A stretch of DNA of 23,187 nucleotides from a virus: UHGV virus genome UHGV-0778869; one strand, given 5' to 3'. The notes below the pieces were generated by a model. That model ran no database searches, had not been told where the DNA came from, and saw only the letters and a program-made list of their open reading frames with translations. A program made the position numbers and the translations under genes. The number at the start of each line of letters is the position of its first letter. The first letter of the stretch is position 1. This document shows positions 14,978 through 23,187 of this stretch, piece after piece.

Positions 14978-15001
14978 GCCGCATCAATGCGGCTTTTTCT
15001 T
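14978..15001 (+). terminator. Intrinsic terminator upstream of xis
   Basis: Stem GCCGCA / TGCGGC with loop TCAA, then TTTTTCTT. Confidence 0.6.
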
Positions 15002-15013
15002 GCGTGTAATTGC
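15000..15013 (+). promoter_or_regulatory. Candidate pI CII-binding site TTGC-N6-TTGC (TTGCGTGTAATTGC)
   Basis: Same motif as at pRE; sits just 5' of the xis ATG so that a dependent transcript would start inside xis, as for lambda pI. Confidence 0.6.
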
Positions 15014-15025
15014 GGAGACTTTGCG

Positions 15026-15244
15026 ATGTACTTGACACTTCAGGAGTGGAACGCTCGCCAGCGACGCCCAAGAAGCCTTGAAACAGTTCGTCGATGGGTG
15101 CGCGAGTGCAGGATATTCCCTCCTCCGGTTAAGGATGGAAGAGAGTATCTGTTCCACGAATCAGCGGTAAAGGTTGACTTAAATCGACCAGTAACAGGTA
15201 GCCTTTTGAAGAGGATCAGAAATGGGAAGAAGGCGAAGTCATGA
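15026..15244 (+). CDS. xis: Excisionase Xis (72 aa)
   Basis: MYLTLQEWNARQRRPRSLETVRRWVRECRIFPPPVKDGREYLFHESAVKVDLNRPVTGSLLKRIRNGKKAKS matches lambda Xis as recalled; overlaps int by 23 nt. Confidence 0.95.
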   Translation: MYLTLQEWNARQRRPRSLETVRRWVRECRIFPPPVKDGREYLFHESAVKVDLNRPVTGSLLKRIRNGKKAKS

Positions 15245-16292
15245 GCGCCGGGATTTACCCCCTAACCTTTATATAAGAAACAATGGATATTACTGCTACA
15301 GGGACCCAAGGACGGGTAAAGAGTTTGGATTAGGCAGAGACAGGAGGATAGCAATCACTGAAGCTATACAGGCCAACATTGAGTTATTTTCAGGACACAA
15401 ACACAAGCCTCTGACAGCGAGAATCAACAGTGATAATTCTGTTACGTTACATTCATGGCTTGATCGCTACGAAAAAATACTCGCCAGCAGAGGAATCAAG
15501 CAGAAGACACTCATAAATTACATGAGCAAAATTAAAGCAATAAGGAGGGGTCTGCCTGATGCTCCACTTGAAGACATCACCACAAAAGAAATTGCGGCAA
15601 TGCTCAATGGATATATAGACGATGGCAAGGCGGCGTCAGCCAAGTTAATCAGATCAACACTGAGCGATGCATTCCGAGAGGCAATAGCTGAAGGCCATAT
15701 AACAACAAACCCGGTCGCTGCCACTCGCGCAGCAAAATCAGAGGTAAGGAGATCAAGGCTTACGGCTGACGAATACCTGAAAATTTATCAAGCAGCAGAA
15801 TCATCACCATGTTGGCTCAGACTTGCAATGGAACTGGCTGTTGTTACCGGGCAGCGAGTTGGTGATTTATGCGAAATGAAGTGGTCTGATATCGTAGATG
15901 GATATCTTTATGTCGAGCAAAGCAAAACAGGCGTAAAAATTGCCATCCCAACAGCATTGCATGTTGATGCCCTCGGGATATCAATGAAGGAAACACTTGA
16001 TAAATGCAAAGAGATTCTTGGCGGAGAAACCATAATTGCATCTACTCGTCGTGAACCGCTTTCATCCGGCACAGTATCAAGGTATTTTATGCGCGCACGA
16101 AAAGCATCAGGTCTTTCCTTCGAAGGGGATCCGCCTACCTTTCACGAGTTGCGCAGTTTGTCTGCAAGACTCTATGAGAAGCAGATAAGCGATAAGTTTG
16201 CTCAACATCTTCTCGGGCATAAGTCGGACACCATGGCATCACAGTATCGTGATGACAGAGGCAGGGAGTGGGACAAAATTGAAATCAAATAA
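15222..16292 (+). CDS. int: Tyrosine integrase, lambda Int type (356 aa)
   Basis: MGRRRSHERRDLPPNLYIRNNGYYCYRDPRTGKEFGLGRDRRIAITEA... ...HELRSLSARLYEKQ...LLGHKSDTMASQYRDD: essentially lambda Int as recalled, with the R-H-R-Y catalytic region. Confidence 0.95.
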   Translation: MGRRRSHERRDLPPNLYIRNNGYYCYRDPRTGKEFGLGRDRRIAITEAIQANIELFSGHKHKPLTARINSDNSVTLHSWLDRYEKILASRGIKQKTLINYMSKIKAIRRGLPDAPLEDITTKEIAAMLNGYIDDGKAASAKLIRSTLSDAFREAIAEGHITTNPVAATRAAKSEVRRSRLTADEYLKIYQAAESSPCWLRLAMELAVVTGQRVGDLCEMKWSDIVDGYLYVEQSKTGVKIAIPTALHVDALGISMKETLDKCKEILGGETIIASTRREPLSSGTVSRYFMRARKASGLSFEGDPPTFHELRSLSARLYEKQISDKFAQHLLGHKSDTMASQYRDDRGREWDKIEIK

Positions 16293-16540
16293 TGATTTTA
16301 TTTTGACTGATAGTGACCTGTTCGTTGCAACAAATTGATAAGCAATGCTTTTTTATAATGCCAACTTAGTATAAAAAAGCTGAACGTGAAACATTAAAAA
16401 TCATTAATATCAATGCATTACAATATCTTTAGTCTAAAAAATAGACTACATAATGCGACAAAACACAACATATCCAGTCACTATGAATCAACCACTTAGA
16501 TGGTATTAGTGACCTGTAACAGAGCATTAGCGCAAGGTGA
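16293..16540. other. attP: P' arm, 15-bp core (16366-16380, reverse complement of GCTTTTTTATACTAA) and P arm
   Basis: P' arm and core match lambda attP as recalled; the P arm (16476-16525) is similar to lambda's but diverged. Confidence 0.85.
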
Positions 16541-16543
16541 TTT

Positions 16544-16584
16544 TTGTCTTCTTGCGCTAATTTTTTGTCAACATACTGGGTTAT
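16544..16584 (+). terminator. sib / tI-like hairpin terminator downstream of attP
   Basis: Stem TTAGCGCAAG / CTTGCGCTAA (10 bp), 14-nt loop, then TTTTTTG; matches the lambda sib/tI region as recalled. Confidence 0.75.
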
Positions 16585-16781
16585 CTGAATTTACAACCAT
16601 GCTCAGTATCTCGATAAGCGCAGAGAAATGATGCAGTGGTGGGCGGACTGGCTTGATGAAAAGGTGGAGTGATCCACCTTTACCATTATCGAAGAGAACA
16701 AAGCCTTGCAAGCCAATGCAAAGCTTTGTGTGTCCCGTTTTTGTCTCAACATAGCCTTAGATATAGACAACGCAATCACTT

Positions 16782-18848
16782 TTATTGGAATGAAATACTG
16801 CACTCCATTTCAGTTGGTGACCCTGTATTGCTGTACGTTACAATAGTCCATGAGGTTGCAGATACCTTGTTTACGACCATGTATCTCCCAGTTCCTGGTG
16901 ACGTAAATGTATATCCTGCAGTCGACATGTCTGTCGGAAATGTTATCACCCAAACACCAGGTGATGTTTTGGATGCTAAGCATCCAACTGCTGATAACAG
17001 AACTCCTGAGCTATTTATATTTACAACACATGGTGAGTTTATAATCTTAACAACACCTGTATCAAGTATGTATGTATCAAACACTTTACCTATTCTGTTG
17101 CCATTTAGGTATGTAACTGCTGTTGCTGACAATCCAGCCCTGTTCCTTAAAACAGTTGAAACTCCAAGCCCTGAGCAATTAGTTACTTGCTGATCTGATA
17201 CCATTCCTGAAGTTGAACTAAATTGCTCCATAATTGCATCAACGGTATTTGACCCATTAAAGCAGTTGAATGAAACGTTCTCTAACTTATTCCTTCTCAC
17301 TGACTTTCCTGAGTCAGATCTAACGTTGCAGATTCTGTTGTACTGCCCTGGAGTGTTTATTTGTACAAATCCACCTCTTATCTTGTTGTCAAGACAGTCT
17401 GTTAATGATTCGCTATGGTCGTATAAATCATACGCTCTTTTAAAATCACCATTATTATTCATGAAGATTAAAACATCTTCTATGAGATTGTTACTACAAC
17501 CTTGAATAGCTATCACGCTATCATTACCATTAAAAGCACCATTTGCGATACTGGTAAATTTACCGCCAACAATCTTGCAGTTAGTGCATCCGCGTGAGAA
17601 CTTAATGTTATTGTTACCACCTATAGCGCCATCGACATTCCCAAGAACTGATGAATTATGAATTCCTTCACAGTTTATGAACTGAAAATCAGTAGTAGGA
17701 AATCCAATACCGTCAGCAGAAGTAGCATGATAATTAACAAGCAGCCCGTTTTCTGCGTATCCTCCCTGAACAAACCCACCCTTAACTCCAAGTATCTCCA
17801 TGTTACCACCGGCCTTAGATTGTCCTATAAACCTTGGCATGGTTATCTCAGGGTCAATAGCGCCGATAACGACAAAGTTACCATGGTTAGCTCCCTTATG
17901 ACCGGTTCCATCAAAGGTGCATCTAATGGCCCTTATCTTTGATCGTCTAGTTGAATCAGCAGATCCGTAAGAAGTATTTCCCATTCTTAATGGCGTCACA
18001 TCTGAATCACCATTGAAATACAGATCTCTTACTTCTATATTATTCCCTGTTAATTCTATTGCACCAAAGCTCTTATTAAACAATGATCCTGTCAAAGTTA
18101 TTCTAGCCTGATTGATGGCTAATATTTTTTTATTGTCAAGGCTTGATATTACGTTATTTGTTATTTTTACATTTATATCTATGTAAATCTCATCAAAATA
18201 TATTAACAACATACTGATTAGTGATGTTATATCACTGTCAGGTGATGTCCAGTCGCTAATTTTTGTGCTTCTAGACCGTGTTCTTTTTTCAAGATAACAA
18301 GTTACCCCGCCAATCACTGCGGAGTTTTGACTCAATGACGATATTGTTCCGCTTGCTGGAGGTGATATATAAAATAATCCAAATTCAGTGTGAATATCTG
18401 TTGTACCAACAGGAATAATATCTCCAACCTTTGCCGTAGCTCTTACATCATTAGGGAATACAACCCCTGGCAATATTTCGTCACGCATTTCATTGACGTA
18501 TACTCTTAACTGGTCAGGGTCATACTTCAACACATTAGGAAAATAGAACTGCTGCGCACCATATGCATCATAAACAGCCATCGAATGACCTTGCACGGTA
18601 ACGAATTTGGCAATCTGTCCGTTATATACCGGGTAACCAGCAGCGTTAATGATGATTGGTTGCGAAACAGGAACGTGAGAACCGTCTTCGTTCTCCACAT
18701 AAACCTGAATCTGGTTTTCAGGATTTACCGGATCCGTGTCAATTTTACCGATATAAATTTTGCCATTGGCTACGGCTTTAAAAGAACGAGCCATAGTGAA
18801 GAGTTGCGAAGGCATGCTTACCACAACATTTGCGGTGATATCTGACAT
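16782..18848 (-). CDS. Tailspike protein: P22-type N-terminal head-binding domain fused to a distinct beta-helix receptor-binding domain (about 688 aa)
   Basis: ATG 18848 with GGAG SD; N-terminus [43 protein letters not shown]...NVLKYDPDQ parallels P22 gp9 residues 1-110; the rest is Gly/Asn-rich repeats typical of right-handed beta-helix depolymerases and unlike P22 gp9. Confidence 0.85.
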
Positions 18849-18969
18849 TTCATTGCTCCAGACGAATGATATGATGCAACCATGATGTGATTGCATACCG
18901 AAATGGTACTATTGAGTATTTATCCAGTAGGTTACGATGCCATTCCACCCAACTGGTGAGGCATCAAGG

Positions 18970-19236
18970 ATGTACAGCAAATACGACGAGGCGCAGTTTC
19001 ACTTGAGACTTCCGCATGAACTCCACGCGAAAATTAAGCAGCGTGCGAAGATGAATAACAGGTCGCTGAACTCAGAGATAATTGCAGCGATTGAAGAATC
19101 ATTGGCTAAACAAAGCTCTGCATCTGTTTACATTGACGATGCAGAGCGTATGGCAGAACAACAATCTGAGATGGTTAAGAAAATTGTCTTTGATACGCTT
19201 AAGACCATGTATAGCAATAATAAAAAGGAAACATAG
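18970..19236 (+). CDS. mnt: Mnt-like ribbon-helix-helix repressor (about 88 aa)
   Basis: AQFHLRLPHELHAKIKQRAKMNNRSLNSEIIAAIEESL ... DAERMAEQQSEMVKKIVFDTLK parallels P22 Mnt as recalled; start uncertain (ATG 18970 or 18937). Confidence 0.75.
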   Translation: MYSKYDEAQFHLRLPHELHAKIKQRAKMNNRSLNSEIIAAIEESLAKQSSASVYIDDAERMAEQQSEMVKKIVFDTLKTMYSNNKKET

Positions 19237-19306
19237 AAATCTAGTTTCCGGCTAAAATGGCATTGCCTTCATGATATCCTGTGAAAAACTAAGGAGAGTT
19301 AACCAT

Positions 19307-19792
19307 ATGAAAAAGTCACTGTTAATTATCCCGCTTCTGCTGGTTGGATGCGCAAAAGTAAGTGACTATCAAGCAAGTTGCGAACAACGCTATCAAAAGC
19401 TTAGCGATATGGCTAATTGCCTTGATGCCAGTGTGAAGAACGACTCACGCATGGCATCAGCACCAACACCTAAGCTGTATGTCCTTGCTGCAAAGATGCT
19501 CGGGCAAAGTGTCGATGAAGGCAAGATAAGTGACGCACAGGCAAGACTTGAGCTTCAGAATCTTTATGTTCAATTACAAAGCCAAGAACAAGCCCAACAA
19601 ATAGCACAAAGCCAAGCATTCCAGCAGGCTTTATTGAATTATCAGGCTGTAAACACAATGCAAGCGATCGAGCAAAAAGCGAGACAGCCTGTTATAACTC
19701 AACCCTATCCAACACGAGTTGACACTTACACAAACTGCAATTCAGGATTTGGAAACACGGTAACATGCAACAGTAGCAGTAGCATCAGATAA
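19307..19792 (+). CDS. Lipoprotein (161 aa) with Gln-rich mature domain
   Basis: AAGGAGAG SD; signal peptide MKKSLLIIPLLLVGC with lipobox LVGC; located between mnt and the ejection-protein gene. Confidence 0.7.
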   Translation: MKKSLLIIPLLLVGCAKVSDYQASCEQRYQKLSDMANCLDASVKNDSRMASAPTPKLYVLAAKMLGQSVDEGKISDAQARLELQNLYVQLQSQEQAQQIAQSQAFQQALLNYQAVNTMQAIEQKARQPVITQPYPTRVDTYTNCNSGFGNTVTCNSSSSIR

Positions 19793-19813
19793 CAATCAGC
19801 AAAGGTATCGCCT

Positions 19814-19891
19814 ATGCAGAGGGATACGATAAACCTCGCGTTCTACATATTTGGTTTTTGCACGTTCCTGGTGTTTGAAAGGCTATTCTGA
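19814..19891 (+). CDS. Candidate hydrophobic mini-peptide (25 aa), weakly supported
   Basis: MQRDTINLAFYIFGFCTFLVFERLF; weak SD; 3' end overlaps the convergent ejection-protein gene. Confidence 0.2.
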   Translation: MQRDTINLAFYIFGFCTFLVFERLF

Positions 19892-21880
19892 CAACGAATC
19901 AGACTTCGCACCCTGCGTCAGTGCATTAATCGCTTTTTGCGCTTGCTGCATGGCTTTCTCAAACGCTGTCGATCCGCGTTGTGTGTTTGCCATTCGTAGC
20001 ATTGCATTTCTGAATGGCTCACTCTCATAGGCGCGAGTAAGAAGTCCGTAGCTTACCGCTGCGCCAGTTGTCGCCGGGTTCATTGCTGTCCCATACCCGA
20101 TAATGAACGGGATGGTTTGCTGCCCTGTTGGTGTTGTTACTGCCGCTTTTGCAGCCTGCTGCGTGGATTGCAGGTAGTTTTTCAATCCTTTCAGATAAGC
20201 AGCGTCCTGCCCCTTAAATGTGATGCCAGTCTGGTTTTGCAGGATGTTAAGCTGTCGAAGGAACTGATCAGGGGAACCCCCTGATTTCTCCATCGCCTTT
20301 CCAATGATGCCATTGCGCATTTGCGCCCTGCCAACACGACCAACTGAGTTATACAGCGTCTTAATTTCCGATTTGTTCTTGCTGAATAGCATGTTGTTGA
20401 CAACTTCCGGCGTCAGATCGCCTTTCATGAGAACATTCTTCAGCCTGGTATTCTTTAGTTTCGCCGCTTCGTTAGCGTAGACGGCATTGGCCTGCTGATA
20501 TTTACGGAGAGTATCGTTGCCAAGATTCTGACCAATGGCACCATTGATATCGTCTGTCATCGCCTTGTAAACGCGCTGAATGGCAGCATCGGAACGGTTT
20601 GGTAACACTGGTCGCTCCCCCTTCACGTCCATTCTGAACTGGCTGCGCAGATCGCTTAATTGCTTCAAATCCAGATTTACCGGACCATCAGGACTAGCAT
20701 TGCGAACAAGCTCATCACGATAGGACTGAAGTTTTGAAATAGTCTCGTTATCAGCAACCTTACCAAGCTTCTGCAGGTTAGATATTTCTGTATCAATCTG
20801 CTGAATTGCTCGCGCAGGCTGAATGTTTACTCCAGCCATAGCATTCTGAACCTGCTCCAGTCGATTACCGGCGGCACGACGAATTCCTGATGTTTTCGCT
20901 TTAAGGCTGTCAATAACAACCGCTGGATCATACTCACCGAATTTATCGGCAAATCTCTGCACCAACTGGCTTCTCGCTTCCTGTTGCGTTGCTCTCATTC
21001 CGCTTGTGCCAGCCAGGGGGATATTTTCTGCTGTAGTCTGCGCCATTTTCCCGACGCGGGAAGTAGGCTGTAACAGGTCTGTGGTGTGCAGAGGAACTCC
21101 TTCACGCTCTGCAAACCTGATAGCCTGTTGAGCTTCTGGTGCTATCGAACCACGAACACCACGATAAGCAGCACCTAATCCACGTCCGGCAGCGTTAATA
21201 GCACCGCCAGCCAGCACACCAACGCCTAAATCGGTGGCGAGTGCTTCCGCATCATCTTTCGCACTGTTTGCAGCAAGTGATCCAACTGCGTTTTCTGCTA
21301 GAAGACGAGTTGCAACCTGAGCAATTCGACCAGCAAGTGTTGGTGCCTGTGTTGCCGCTCTCTCAACGCCAGCAGGAGTGAGGTAAGGCAATGCTTCAGC
21401 AAATACCCTTCCCTCTGTCGTTTGTGGAGTCAGCGCGCCTTGCTGAAGGCCAAAGTCCTGCTCTAATCCCTGCGTTGTTACTCGTGGCGCTGGTTGATAT
21501 GTCCCATCGCCAATTCCGAGTTTACCGCCAGCCCAAGCCGCCGCGCTTGTTACAGCATCGGCAACTGATGCAGGTATGTTTGCCACGTTCACGCCAGCCT
21601 GCACCAGTCCGCGACCAGTTTCTTTCACGGCTTCGCCAAGATCAGACATAAATCCACTTTGCTGTGGTTGTTGCTGTGCTACTGGTTGCTGTGTCTCCAC
21701 TGGCTGCACAGATGGCAATGGATAGGCAGCATAGAAAGCTTGCTTAGCCTGCTCTGCATTTTCTCCGGCTTGCGGGGCAACGACTTCTTTGAAGTATTGC
21801 TCCTGAGCCTGCGCTTTTTGTTCTGGTGCTAACGCCTGATACTGTGGAGAGGCGATAACATCTTTCCATGCTTTAGCCAT
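19883..21880 (-). CDS. Ejection / DNA-transfer protein (P22 gp16 position, 665 aa)
   Basis: Large Ala/Gln/Gly-rich protein upstream of the immI-like region; start overlaps the upstream gene stop (TAATG). Confidence 0.7.
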   Translation of the reverse strand: MAKAWKDVIASPQYQALAPEQKAQAQEQYFKEVVAPQAGENAEQAKQAFYAAYPLPSVQPVETQQPVAQQQPQQSGFMSDLGEAVKETGRGLVQAGVNVANIPASVADAVTSAAAWAGGKLGIGDGTYQPAPRVTTQGLEQDFGLQQGALTPQTTEGRVFAEALPYLTPAGVERAATQAPTLAGRIAQVATRLLAENAVGSLAANSAKDDAEALATDLGVGVLAGGAINAAGRGLGAAYRGVRGSIAPEAQQAIRFAEREGVPLHTTDLLQPTSRVGKMAQTTAENIPLAGTSGMRATQQEARSQLVQRFADKFGEYDPAVVIDSLKAKTSGIRRAAGNRLEQVQNAMAGVNIQPARAIQQIDTEISNLQKLGKVADNETISKLQSYRDELVRNASPDGPVNLDLKQLSDLRSQFRMDVKGERPVLPNRSDAAIQRVYKAMTDDINGAIGQNLGNDTLRKYQQANAVYANEAAKLKNTRLKNVLMKGDLTPEVVNNMLFSKNKSEIKTLYNSVGRVGRAQMRNGIIGKAMEKSGGSPDQFLRQLNILQNQTGITFKGQDAAYLKGLKNYLQSTQQAAKAAVTTPTGQQTIPFIIGYGTAMNPATTGAAVSYGLLTRAYESEPFRNAMLRMANTQRGSTAFEKAMQQAQKAINALTQGAKSDSLSE

Positions 21881-23187
21881 TAATCACCCCATAGTGAAGA
21901 AAAGTTACTGCCAGTAGTAGATTGTTGCCCTGGCATATTCTGCACCGGCTCCTGATAATCAAACTGTTTTTTAACAGTGCTCAACTTGCTTTCAAGCTGA
22001 TTTCTAATCTTTCCGATAGAGTCACGAAAAGCCTTTTCACTCATTTTGGGGCTTAGGGCACCAACCGCATCGGATAATTTTTTACCCTCAGCATCTGAAA
22101 GAGCCCCCATACCCTTAAGGGACTGCACCATAGGAAGGAATGTTTGAGCTTTAAAGGTGTCGAGCCTTGCTTCAAAGTTAGCTGCATCAGAGCCAGGAAC
22201 TGTCGGAAACGCTGAGCGAATTCCTACTGCTTTTGAAAGGCCTGGGCTTTGCTCTATCTCGTTGAGAGAATCAAGCGCTGTGCTGAACGTATCAACTGCA
22301 CCCTGAGCGGCGGCCTGCCTGTCAGCGCGGGCTATGTCAGCCTTTTGCCGAACATCTGCCTGTTTCTGTTTTAGCTCTTCAAGCTTTAACTGATTGCTTT
22401 CTCTGGCTATCTGTCTGTCCAGAGCCTTTTCTTGTAATTCTGCTCTTTGTATTTCTCGGGAAAGAGCAGCATTCTGTGCGCTGATGTTCTGTCCACGTAT
22501 CTGGATGTCCTGACCTCGAGCTGTTAGTGCTTCTCCTGCCTGATTGCTGCGGATTGTCTCTGCCAGTCTGCCTCGGTCAATCTCACGACCAGCCATCTTG
22601 TCCTGAACATTGAAGTAATCAATCGGACCAAGAGCAGCCATTCCAAGGTGATCAACAAACTCACCAAATCCTGAAGGATTCTGCTGATACATCTGAGCAA
22701 CGTTGTTAGGGTCAACACCGACGCGATTCAGTTCCTTGGCGTTGTTTTGCAGCCATGATTGCATTGCTTCTGGAGATGATGATGCAAGGCGAGCGCCAGC
22801 CGCTAAGGTGCCGATAGAATTGCGCTGGTCTTCATCAATGAACCCCATGCCTTTACGAATAGATTCAATCTGGTCTGGATATTGAGTAGCCAACTGACGC
22901 AAAGCTCCGCGATCACCAGACGCATAACCCCTCCGTAGCGTAGTTCCGCCATGCGTAGCGGTGCTGAACGAACGGAAGTGCTCCCGACCGAGCGAGATAC
23001 CCACGAGGAAGCAAGGCGGAGGGCTTTGCCCACACCGCACATAAACGCTTGACTCTGCGCAGCAGTGCCAAACACCGCTTTTTGACCGAGCGACCGAGGG
23101 TGCACGGAGAGAGTGAAGCTGAGCGGAGGATGGCGGATGCGTAGCGTAGGAGCGTGGCTGCGGTGGTCTGAGCATAGCGAAGTCCAC
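21880..23187 (-). CDS. Ejection protein (P22 gp20 position), N-terminus beyond the window edge
   Basis: Open frame to the window edge; residues encoded from about 22900 downward are protein-like (coiled coil, Ala/Gln-rich); the segment 22900-23187 is compositionally anomalous. Confidence 0.6.
   Translation of the reverse strand: MDFAMLRPPQPRSYATHPPSSAQLHSLRAPSVARSKSGVWHCCAESSVYVRCGQSPPPCFLVGISLGREHFRSFSTATHGGTTLRRGYASGDRGALRQLATQYPDQIESIRKGMGFIDEDQRNSIGTLAAGARLASSSPEAMQSWLQNNAKELNRVGVDPNNVAQMYQQNPSGFGEFVDHLGMAALGPIDYFNVQDKMAGREIDRGRLAETIRSNQAGEALTARGQDIQIRGQNISAQNAALSREIQRAELQEKALDRQIARESNQLKLEELKQKQADVRQKADIARADRQAAAQGAVDTFSTALDSLNEIEQSPGLSKAVGIRSAFPTVPGSDAANFEARLDTFKAQTFLPMVQSLKGMGALSDAEGKKLSDAVGALSPKMSEKAFRDSIGKIRNQLESKLSTVKKQFDYQEPVQNMPGQQSTTGSNFSSLWGD

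What the first reader, a model, noticed from the sequence alone, without database searches (positions are those of the whole stretch)
18849..19236. Orphan mnt-like repressor divergent from the tailspike gene, without arc or ant
In P22 mnt is divergent from arc-ant and represses the antirepressor promoter. Here the roughly 120-bp interval separates mnt directly from the tailspike start, with no arc/ant genes. I did not find a P22-like Mnt operator; there is only a weak CACC-N5-GGTG dyad at 18946-18958. The target of this Mnt is therefore unclear.
Basis: inference. Interest (0 to 1): 0.35.

Follow-up and report, generated by a model that had tools for sequence, protein, structure and literature searches.

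The report
Common mnt-only module in P22-like phage
This is an intact Mnt repressor gene next to the tailspike gene of a P22-like phage, in a stripped-down arrangement (no arc, no antirepressor) that is already described and very common, and it does have its own operator.

Summary
An 88-aa Mnt homologue (18970-19236, +) lies 121 bp from, and divergent to, a P22-type tailspike gene (16782-18848, -). No arc, ant or sar is present in the window.

It is not an oddity. The same layout occurs in phages Sf101, IME10, VSe13, ST160 and 720R6, in over 150 IMG/VR contigs, and in 245 of 5,426 complete E. coli genomes. The literature already describes mnt-only "ant morons" in phages L, ST64T and ST104.

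A 17-bp dyad, CATACCGAAATGGTACT (18894-18910), sits exactly where P22 Omnt sits. It abuts the same CTCAATAG motif and the -35 of a Pmnt-like promoter.

Across 229 Mnt loci with an alignable promoter anchor (238 analysed), three beta-strand classes pair one-to-one with three dyad types. Only the P22 class keeps arc/ant and a strong Pant promoter.

mnt is under strong purifying selection (pN/pS 0.11), so it is functional rather than decaying.

The CACC-N5-GGTG dyad is probably not the operator.

Most likely Mnt binds this single site, controls its own promoter and blocks a weak leftover tailspike-directed promoter. The physiological benefit remains unproven.

Interest is low: known arrangement, one useful refinement.

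The parts
16782..18848 (-). Tailspike gene (P22 gp9-like head-binding N-terminus with a different receptor-binding part); start MSDITANVV
   Evidence: ORF list; Pfam Head_binding 1.8e-67
18856..18859 (-). Tailspike Shine-Dalgarno GGAG, 7 nt before the ATG
   Evidence: Read from the sequence; conserved as TGCTCCAG in relatives
18874..18896 (-). Inverted repeat ATGCAACCA/TGATTGCAT. It forms a 9-bp hairpin in the tailspike-sense leader RNA and abuts the operator.
   Evidence: the repeat finder I3. Variants keep pairing: U.G to C-G or U-A, and one double change G-C to U-A in L090. 96% of cells are paired, matched by 9 of 500 shuffles. Folding z-score is only -1.34, so this is suggestive only.
18894..18910 (.). 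Predicted Mnt operator, 17-bp dyad CATACCGAAATGGTACT, centred on 18902, with core TACC (18896-18899) and GGTA (18905-18908)
   Evidence: Same offset from CTCAATAG and from the Pmnt -35 as the annotated P22 Omnt. Unique in the window and in the complete Sf101 genome. Conserved across Escherichia, Salmonella, Buttiauxella and Serratia loci while its left flank diverges. Dyad type tracks the Mnt beta-strand class in 229 loci.
18912..18938 (+). Pmnt-like promoter: TTGAGT (18912-18917), 15-nt spacer, TACGAT (18933-18938)
   Evidence: Positional homologue of the annotated P22 Pmnt, TTGAGA-N17-TATCAT. TTG and TA..AT are conserved in all classes. This is the least variable part of the intergenic region, pi 0.005.
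18915..18943 (-). Degraded homologue of P22 Pant, pointing at the tailspike gene: ATGGCA (18943-18938) with TAAATA (18922-18917, 15-nt spacer) or AATACT (18920-18915, 17-nt spacer)
   Evidence: Alignment to P22. Best leftward match is 8/12, against 11/12 (TTGACA-N17-TATATT) in the arc/ant-bearing class.
18936..18965 (+). Inverted repeat GATGCC...GGCATC.
   Evidence: Folds (z = -1.24). The outer stem is invariant and shows no compensatory pairs. Inner arms differ between relatives: CACC/GGTG, GTCC/GGAC, CGCA/TGCG, CACTT/AAGTG. Inconclusive.
18970..19236 (+). mnt: an 88-aa ribbon-helix-helix repressor with a C-terminal tetramerisation helix. DNA-reading strand is Q9-F-H11-L-R13, where P22 has H6-F-N8-F-R10.
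   Evidence: All 86 sampled copies are intact; pN/pS is 0.11, and 0.024 in the RHH part.
19216..19249 (-). Weak terminator-like hairpin on the late-operon strand (GGAAAC-N11-GTTTCC followed by TTTTTAT), overlapping the mnt stop codon
   Evidence: Read from the sequence. The scan tool did not call it because the loop is 11 nt. Not followed up.
19307..19792 (+). Lipoprotein ORF (lipobox LLVGC) in the position that sieA occupies in P22; function unknown
   Evidence: PHROG 6067, 8e-109, unknown function; no Pfam hit. Found in about half of the closest relatives; absent from the Sf101 type.
19883..23187 (-). Late-operon ejection protein genes: gp16-like (19883-21880) and gp20-like (21880-23187). 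They bound the 'ant moron' on the right.
   Evidence: Annotations of relatives; Pfam Inj_translocase 1e-43.

Best explanation
The locus is a reduced secondary-immunity region, a 'mnt-only ant moron', of a P22-like (Lederbergvirus) phage.

Mnt here is an intact tetrameric ribbon-helix-helix repressor. Its N-terminal beta-strand (QFHLRL) belongs to a different specificity class from P22 Mnt (HFNFRM).

It most likely binds one site, the 17-bp dyad at 18894-18910. As in P22, that dyad lies 1 bp upstream of the -35 of mnt's own promoter. It also lies over the start region of the opposing promoter that in P22 drives arc-ant-9.

With arc and ant gone, that opposing promoter has decayed to a weak remnant aimed straight at the tailspike gene.

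Inferred function: in the lysogen, Mnt keeps this remnant shut, so there is no tailspike-directed transcription. By removing the competing face-to-face promoter, it also sustains its own expression. The tailspike gene is expressed by read-through of the late operon.

Shown: the identity of the protein, the presence and conservation of the dyad and of Pmnt, the loss of arc/ant, the weakness of the leftward promoter, and purifying selection.

Inferred: actual binding, the direction of regulation, and the physiological benefit.
For: Protein identity: Pfam Arc plus Repressor_Mnt; PDB 1mnt and 1qey.

Position: between gp16 and gp9 homologues.

Homology of the dyad: P22 record features give Pant, Pmnt and Omnt. 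The window dyad aligns to Omnt after the identical CTCAATAG motif.

Class association in 238 loci: HFNFRM pairs with AGGTCCACNGTGGACCT, QFNLRL with RNGACCACNGTGGTCTT, and QFHLRL with TACCNAAANGGTA, without overlap between classes.

Rate of core mismatches: about 10% of class copies, similar to the experimentally established P22 operator.

Co-decay: a Citrobacter copy has a stop codon in mnt and also a mutated dyad.

Single site: only one site in the window, in Sf101 and in IME10.

Promoter strength: leftward 8/12 here against 11/12 in P22; 81 of 83 P22-class loci have ant, against 0 of 154 in the other two classes.

Selection: 86 of 86 ORFs intact, pN/pS 0.11. Intergenic diversity is 0.005-0.02, against 0.08-0.21 at third codon positions of the flanking genes.
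Against: No binding or expression data exist for this class.

The dyad is only half symmetric (4 of 8 positions), whereas P22 Omnt is fully symmetric.

The Pmnt-like promoter has a 15-nt spacer in this subtype.

The leftward promoter is so weak by consensus that there may be little to repress. That leaves unexplained why selection on mnt is so strong.

The low intergenic diversity could partly reflect recent spread of one module rather than constraint.

Sampling kept the 80 best hits per query, so distant arrangements are under-sampled.
Confidence: 0.6

Rival explanations
1. Trans-acting immunity. The prophage keeps Mnt to silence the Mnt-controlled promoter of superinfecting P22-like phages of the same operator class. 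One example would be preventing an incoming antirepressor from inducing the resident prophage. Another would be blocking tailspike expression of the incoming phage.
For: Strong purifying selection with no cis target of obvious value. Three sharply separated protein/operator specificity classes, a pattern typical of immunity systems. The window encodes a LexA-like cI repressor of the kind that antirepressors attack.
Against: None of the 87 loci of this class, nor the 67 of the QFNLRL class, carries arc/ant beside the operator. No matching ant target is therefore seen in the sample. All P22-like occurrences of the operator pattern in IMG/VR lie next to mnt itself, although that scan was truncated.
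Confidence: 0.15
2. Dosage gate on the tailspike gene. Mnt bound just upstream of the tailspike leader, together with head-on transcription from Pmnt and the weak minus-strand terminator, attenuates late-operon read-through. This would set the amount of tailspike made.
For: The literature suggests that the P22 ant moron modulates read-through into gene 9 and that Mnt/Arc may take part (PMC2629481). mnt-operator-tailspike synteny holds in 134 of 154 arc/ant-less loci. A terminator-like hairpin lies at 19216-19249 and a conserved leader hairpin at 18874-18896.
Against: Small repressors are poor roadblocks for antiterminated polymerase. Phages Sf6 and APSE lack the whole moron yet make tailspike (PMC2629481). 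No direct data exist.
Confidence: 0.12
3. Mnt's real job is to drive or regulate the downstream lipoprotein gene (19307-19792) as an mnt-lipoprotein operon expressed from the prophage.
For: Same strand, a 70-bp gap, and no plus-strand terminator between the two genes.
Against: At least 24 of the 80 closest loci, plus Sf101 and IME10, have the same mnt and operator but no lipoprotein gene. In VSe13 and 720R6 an opposite-strand gene separates the two, so the lipoprotein gene must have its own promoter.
Confidence: 0.06
4. Decaying, functionless remnant of an immI region that lost arc and ant.
For: The phage L paper raised this possibility for its mnt (PMC8022706). One Citrobacter copy is a pseudogene. 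The Pant homologue has decayed.
Against: 86 of 86 sampled ORFs are intact. pN/pS is 0.11 overall and 0.024 in the DNA-binding domain. The operator and Pmnt are conserved across genera. The module is present in 245 complete E. coli genomes.
Confidence: 0.04
5. The first reader's CACC-N5-GGTG dyad (18946-18958) is the Mnt operator.
For: It is a real dyad between the -10 and the start codon, conserved in close relatives.
Against: It is not at the Omnt-homologous position. Relatives with the same DNA-reading strand carry different inner arms, GTCC/GGAC and CGCA/TGCG. Classes with other operators share the outer GATGCC/GGCATC arms. It behaves more like a leader stem-loop, though that is also unproven (z = -1.24).
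Confidence: 0.03

Closest known systems
mnt-only 'ant morons' of Salmonella phages L, ST64T, ST104 and ST160/SE1
   Same: Between gene 16 and gene 9 there is only mnt plus one gene of unknown function. There is no arc, ant or sieA. mnt faces the tailspike gene across about 120-135 bp (PMC2629481, PMC8022706).
   Different: Those phages, judged from ST160/SE1, use the QFNLRL strand with a GACCAC-N-GTGGTC operator. The window uses QFHLRL with TACC-N5-GGTA. The accompanying unknown gene also differs; here it is a lipoprotein.
Phages Sf101 and IME10, and many E. coli/Shigella prophages
   Same: Mnt is 92% identical. The 121-bp intergenic region is essentially identical, including the dyad, the promoter and the leader hairpin. 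The tailspike N-terminus is the same.
   Different: Sf101 has no lipoprotein gene and a different Mnt C-terminal tail (ELYKKDSS). RefSeq mislabels the protein 'partition protein ATPase'.
P22 immI region (mnt-arc-ant-sar)
   Same: Homologous repressor with both domains. Same genomic slot. Same geometry of operator, Pmnt -35 and CTCAATAG motif.
   Different: No arc, ant or sar. The operator sequence and reading residues differ. Pant is degraded from 11/12 to 8/12. The region left of the operator is replaced by the tailspike leader.

Membership tests
Mnt repressor family (P22 Mnt) | N-terminal ribbon-helix-helix (Arc-like) DNA-binding domain | tested here: met
   Pfam PF03869 7.4e-15; PDB 1mnt 2.2e-19 over residues 6-78
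Mnt repressor family (P22 Mnt) | C-terminal tetramerisation helix | tested here: met
   Pfam PF11423 8e-14; PDB 1qey 4.3e-7
Mnt repressor family (P22 Mnt) | Sequence-specific binding to a dyad operator next to its own promoter | not testable with these tools
   A candidate dyad lies at the homologous position and its type tracks the reading strand. Binding itself needs EMSA or footprinting.
P22-type immI (secondary immunity) region | Located between the gene 16 and gene 9 homologues of a P22-like late operon | tested here: met
P22-type immI (secondary immunity) region | Antirepressor gene ant | tested here: not met
   tblastn with P22 Ant, CUS-3 Ant, KilA and Rha: no hit in the window, nor in complete Sf101 and IME10 apart from an unrelated Rha near the packaging end of Sf101
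P22-type immI (secondary immunity) region | arc gene | tested here: not met
   The P22 Arc query gave no hit at E <= 1 anywhere in the window; the mnt locus is hit only by Mnt queries
P22-type immI (secondary immunity) region | Strong Pant promoter overlapped by the Mnt operator | tested here: not met
   Best leftward match is 8/12, against 11/12 in the P22 class
P22-type immI (secondary immunity) region | sar antisense RNA | tested here: not met
   No Rfam match in the window at gathering score, or at E <= 1 in 18500-19900. Its arc-ant junction site is also absent.
mnt-only ant moron (L/ST64T type) | mnt plus at most one or two unrelated genes between genes 16 and 9, with mnt directly divergent from the tailspike gene | tested here: met
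   Only mnt and one lipoprotein ORF lie between 18849 and 19882. The same layout is seen in ST160 and described in PMC2629481 and PMC8022706.

The most novel reading that the evidence does not exclude
The two arc/ant-less Mnt classes (QFHLRL and QFNLRL) are not leftovers. They would be long-lived, selected Mnt-operator-tailspike modules with private specificities. Their function would be something other than antirepressor control, for example cross-phage interference with tailspike or late expression, or gating of read-through into the tailspike gene.
Probability: 0.3. Interest if true: 0.5.

Novelty: already known. Interest (0 to 1): 0.2.

Why it matters
Practical value: it corrects the reading of this locus. 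The repressor is not targetless, and the site to test is 18894-18910, not 18946-18958.

Database error: this protein family is mislabelled 'partition protein ATPase' in RefSeq and PHROGs.

Open question: roughly two thirds of the sampled Mnt genes in P22-like phages have no antirepressor to control, yet they are under strong purifying selection and keep class-specific operators. The literature has only noted this in passing ('another function or a remnant'). A simple genetic test in Sf101, IME10 or L lysogens could settle what a lone Mnt does.

Tried and rejected
(1) Relocated arc/ant. I searched by tblastn in the window and in complete Sf101 and IME10. None was found.

(2) Further operator copies. 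There are none in the window, Sf101, IME10 or eight related loci. The exceptions are a 1-mismatch site inside the tailspike gene (17099) and a site at IME10 22769 (TACCAGTCCGGTA) that matches the core arms but lacks the AAA/TTT centre. Both look like chance.

(3) IMG/VR scan for CATACCNAAANGGTAC. It returned 120 rows before the limit. Of these, 40 were beside mnt, one was a truncated mnt locus, and 79 were in unrelated contigs at roughly the random rate. Five contigs carry two copies 515 bp apart in the promoter regions of an unrelated phage. No Mnt homologue is nearby, so I treated them as coincidence or an unrelated repressor.

Energies are not better than shuffles (z = -1.24 and -1.34). Only one compensatory pair was seen, so I left both as suggestive.

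(5) A complete E. coli prophage (strain 90-1) turned out to be IS-disrupted and uninformative.

(6) Literature. Nothing links Sf101 and Mnt. The Knight and Sauer 1989 paper is not held. Statements about which P22 Mnt residues read DNA therefore rest on general knowledge plus the alignment to 1mnt.

(7) An early misreading is corrected here. The commonest variant in the dyad is C18899 to A (TACA), not G to A. The symmetric TACCA-AAA-TGGTA form occurs in only three loci.

Full report
**What is there**

The window is a P22-like (Lederbergvirus) phage in phage order. It holds a cII gene, a LexA-like cI repressor, xis and a lambda-type int. The tailspike gene converges on int. On the minus strand lie the ejection genes gp16 and gp20.

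Only two plus-strand ORFs lie between gp16 (19883-21880) and the tailspike gene (16782-18848). One is a lipoprotein gene of unknown function (19307-19792; PHROG 6067). The other is the flagged gene (18970-19236).

The flagged gene encodes an 88-aa protein. It matches Pfam Arc and Repressor_Mnt. It also matches the solved P22 Mnt DNA-binding domain (1mnt, 2e-19) and the tetramerisation domain (1qey, 4e-7). It is 48.7% identical to P22 Mnt.

The distance from its ATG to the tailspike ATG is 121 bp.

tblastn with P22 Arc and Ant, CUS-3 Ant, and JEP4 KilA and Rha finds nothing else in the window. Rfam finds no sar or any other family.

**The arrangement is common and already described**

Phages Sf101, IME10, VSe13, 720R6, Gally, JEP4 and ST160/SE1 all have mnt directly divergent from the tailspike gene, with no arc or ant in between.

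IMG/VR holds 225 contigs encoding a close relative. Of the best 80 (at least 91% identical), 66 have exactly the 121-bp gap, and none has arc or ant. The exceptions carry an HNH endonuclease or an IS insertion.

245 of 5,426 complete E. coli genomes carry the module.

Villafane et al. 2008 named the gene 16 to gene 9 interval the hypervariable 'ant moron'. They noted that ST64T, ST104 and Para1 contain only mnt plus one unknown gene (PMC2629481). Zaworski et al. 2020 say the same of phage L. They add that its mnt 'could have acquired another function or be a remnant' (PMC8022706).

**There is an operator**

The P22 record annotates three features:
- Pant: TTGACA-N17-TATATT
- Pmnt: TTGAGA-N17-TATCAT
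- Omnt: CTCAATAGGTCCACGGTGGACCT

The window's intergenic region aligns to this. It has the identical CTCAATAG motif, followed by TACCATTTCGGTA on the tailspike strand, where P22 has GTCCACGGTGGAC.

In plus-strand coordinates the 17-mer CATACCGAAATGGTACT occupies 18894-18910. It ends 1 nt before a Pmnt-like TTGAGT-N15-TACGAT (18912-18938).

TACC-N5-GGTA occurs once in the window (0.11 expected) and once in the complete Sf101 genome. IME10 has one further core match, TACCAGTCCGGTA at 22769, without the AAA/TTT centre; it lies far from mnt and looks like chance.

In an alignment of this Mnt class from Escherichia, Salmonella, Buttiauxella, Serratia and Citrobacter, the conserved block starts at the dyad and runs through the -35 and -10. 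The sequence between the dyad and the tailspike ribosome-binding site is largely unalignable.

**Protein class and dyad type go together**

I collected 238 Mnt loci: named phages, three IMG/VR scans and one scan of species-representative genomes. For each I read the 17 nt that precede the ATTG of the -35. Nine loci had no ATTG anchor within the expected distance of the start codon, eight of them the HFNFRM CUS-3-type loci where mnt sits directly behind a second mnt gene. That leaves 229 loci with a readable 17-mer.

| Beta-strand class | Loci | Dyad at the anchor | arc/ant |
|---|---|---|---|
| HFNFRM (P22 type) | 83 | AGGTCCAC-N-GTGGACCT | ant in 81 of 83 |
| QFNLRL | 67 | RNGACCAC-N-GTGGTCTT | none |
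| QFHLRL (window) | 87 | NNTACCN-AAA-NGGTANN | none |

No dyad type crosses classes among the 229.

The tailspike gene is within 200 bp in 56 QFNLRL loci and 78 QFHLRL loci.

Single-base core variants occur in about 10% of copies in each class, including the experimentally established P22 operator.

One Citrobacter copy has both a stop codon in mnt and a mutated right arm.

The alignment to 1mnt places window residues Q9, H11 and R13 opposite P22 residues H6, N8 and R10. That these positions read the bases is general knowledge of Arc and Mnt, not tested here.

**The gene is under selection; the opposing promoter is not**

All 86 sampled copies of this class are intact. Mean pN/pS is 0.11, and 0.024 in the ribbon-helix-helix part.

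Diversity in the 121-bp region is 0.005-0.02 per site, lowest over Pmnt. At third codon positions it is 0.08 in mnt and 0.21 in the tailspike gene.

The homologue of Pant, by contrast, is ATGGCA with TAAATA or AATACT. That is at best 8 of 12 consensus positions, against 11 of 12 in the P22 class. The QFNLRL class shows 7-8 of 12.

**Most likely mechanism**

Shown: a functional Mnt-type tetrameric repressor; one class-specific dyad at the Omnt position; a retained Pmnt; a decayed Pant now aimed at the tailspike leader; no arc, ant or sar.

Inferred: Mnt binds 18894-18910. It occludes the start region of the residual leftward promoter, so nothing initiates toward the tailspike gene in the lysogen. 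As in P22, this leaves Pmnt free, giving self-sustaining expression. The tailspike gene is transcribed by late-operon read-through.

I put about 0.85 on the operator assignment and about 0.4 on this being the selected function. The report's overall confidence of 0.6 sits between the two.

Rivals are trans-acting immunity against phages of the same operator class, a dosage gate on read-through into the tailspike gene, control of the lipoprotein gene, and a neutral remnant.
- Lipoprotein control is weakened because many relatives lack that gene.
- A neutral remnant is weakened by the selection data.
- Trans immunity is weakened because no locus of this class carries an ant beside the operator. 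It is not excluded.

CACC-N5-GGTG is the inner part of a longer inverted repeat, GATGCC...GGCATC (18936-18965). This repeat spans the -10 and the mnt leader and overlaps the Shine-Dalgarno sequence.

Relatives with the same reading strand have other inner arms (GTCC/GGAC, CGCA/TGCG). Other classes share the outer arms. It therefore does not track Mnt specificity.

As an RNA structure it is unproven. There are no compensatory pairs in the outer stem, and z = -1.24.

**Verdict**

It is partly wrong: there is an operator, and the arrangement is ordinary. The arrangement is already known. The refinement offered here is the operator assignment and the three-class association. Interest is low.

Noticed in passing
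window 18874-18896 (- strand RNA): A 9-bp hairpin (AUGCAAUCA-CAUCA-UGGUUGCAU) lies in the tailspike leader, immediately after the operator. Natural variants mostly keep pairing: U.G to C-G or U-A, C-G to U.G, and one double change G-C to U-A in Escherichia sp. locus L090. P22-type leaders have a different hairpin (CCGUAGC-CAU-GCUGCGG) at the same place. Statistics are weak.
   Followed up: partly
Its outer arms are conserved in two other Mnt classes and resemble CATGTCA...TGGCATG in P22. It overlaps the Pmnt -10 and the mnt ribosome-binding site. Function unknown.
   Followed up: partly
window 19216-19249 (- strand): A terminator-like hairpin, GGAAAC-N11-GTTTCC followed by a T-run, lies on the late-operon strand and overlaps the mnt stop codon. 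It could attenuate non-antiterminated transcription heading for the tailspike gene.
   Followed up: no
window 19307-19792: A lipoprotein ORF (lipobox LLVGC, glutamine-rich middle) sits in the slot that sieA occupies in P22. It matches PHROG 6067 of unknown function. It is present in about half of the closest relatives, always with the 88-aa Mnt allele. It is a candidate superinfection-exclusion or conversion moron.
   Followed up: partly
RefSeq records NC_027398 (Sf101), NC_002371 (P22), NC_014900 (ST160); PHROG 795: Mnt proteins of 83-97 aa are labelled 'partition protein ATPase'. This is an evident propagated annotation error for a ribbon-helix-helix repressor. Sf101 also uses the upstream ATG (equivalent to window 18937), which lies inside the promoter.
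   Followed up: partly
L006 (phage JEP4), L093 (Citrobacter), L098 (Buttiauxella), L094 (Serratia), L002 (VSe13): Relatives with the same Mnt reading strand carry a different antirepressor-like cassette on the other side of mnt. It holds a C2-like repressor divergent from an Arc-like gene, Rha and KilA, or a 96-aa 'antirepressor'. The cassette is transcribed toward mnt. No TACC-N5-GGTA site precedes it, so it seems to be under separate control.
   Followed up: partly
L016, L050, L064 (728-bp gap); L053 (1457-bp gap): In some relatives an HNH/AP2-type homing endonuclease gene or an IS3-family element is inserted between the operator region and the tailspike start. The first tailspike codons are duplicated.
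   Followed up: no
L127, L134, L172, L188, L225 (unrelated IMG/VR phage contigs): There are two copies of CATACCGAAACGGTAC 515 bp apart. Each lies between a TATATA box and the start of a small gene, inside a ~60-bp repeated promoter region. This is the exact JEP4-type Mnt dyad, yet no Mnt homologue was detected nearby. It may be coincidence or an unrelated repressor with a similar site.
   Followed up: partly
window 18894-18896 and 16782-18896: An in-frame ATG inside the operator would extend the tailspike ORF by 16 codons ([16 protein letters not shown]-). It is probably not used: the conserved start, MSDITANVV, has its own GGAG.
   Followed up: no
window 14987-16781: xis and a lambda-type int end about 490 bp from the 3' end of the tailspike gene. 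The window is therefore in the unintegrated (attP-intact) phage configuration rather than a prophage junction.
   Followed up: partly
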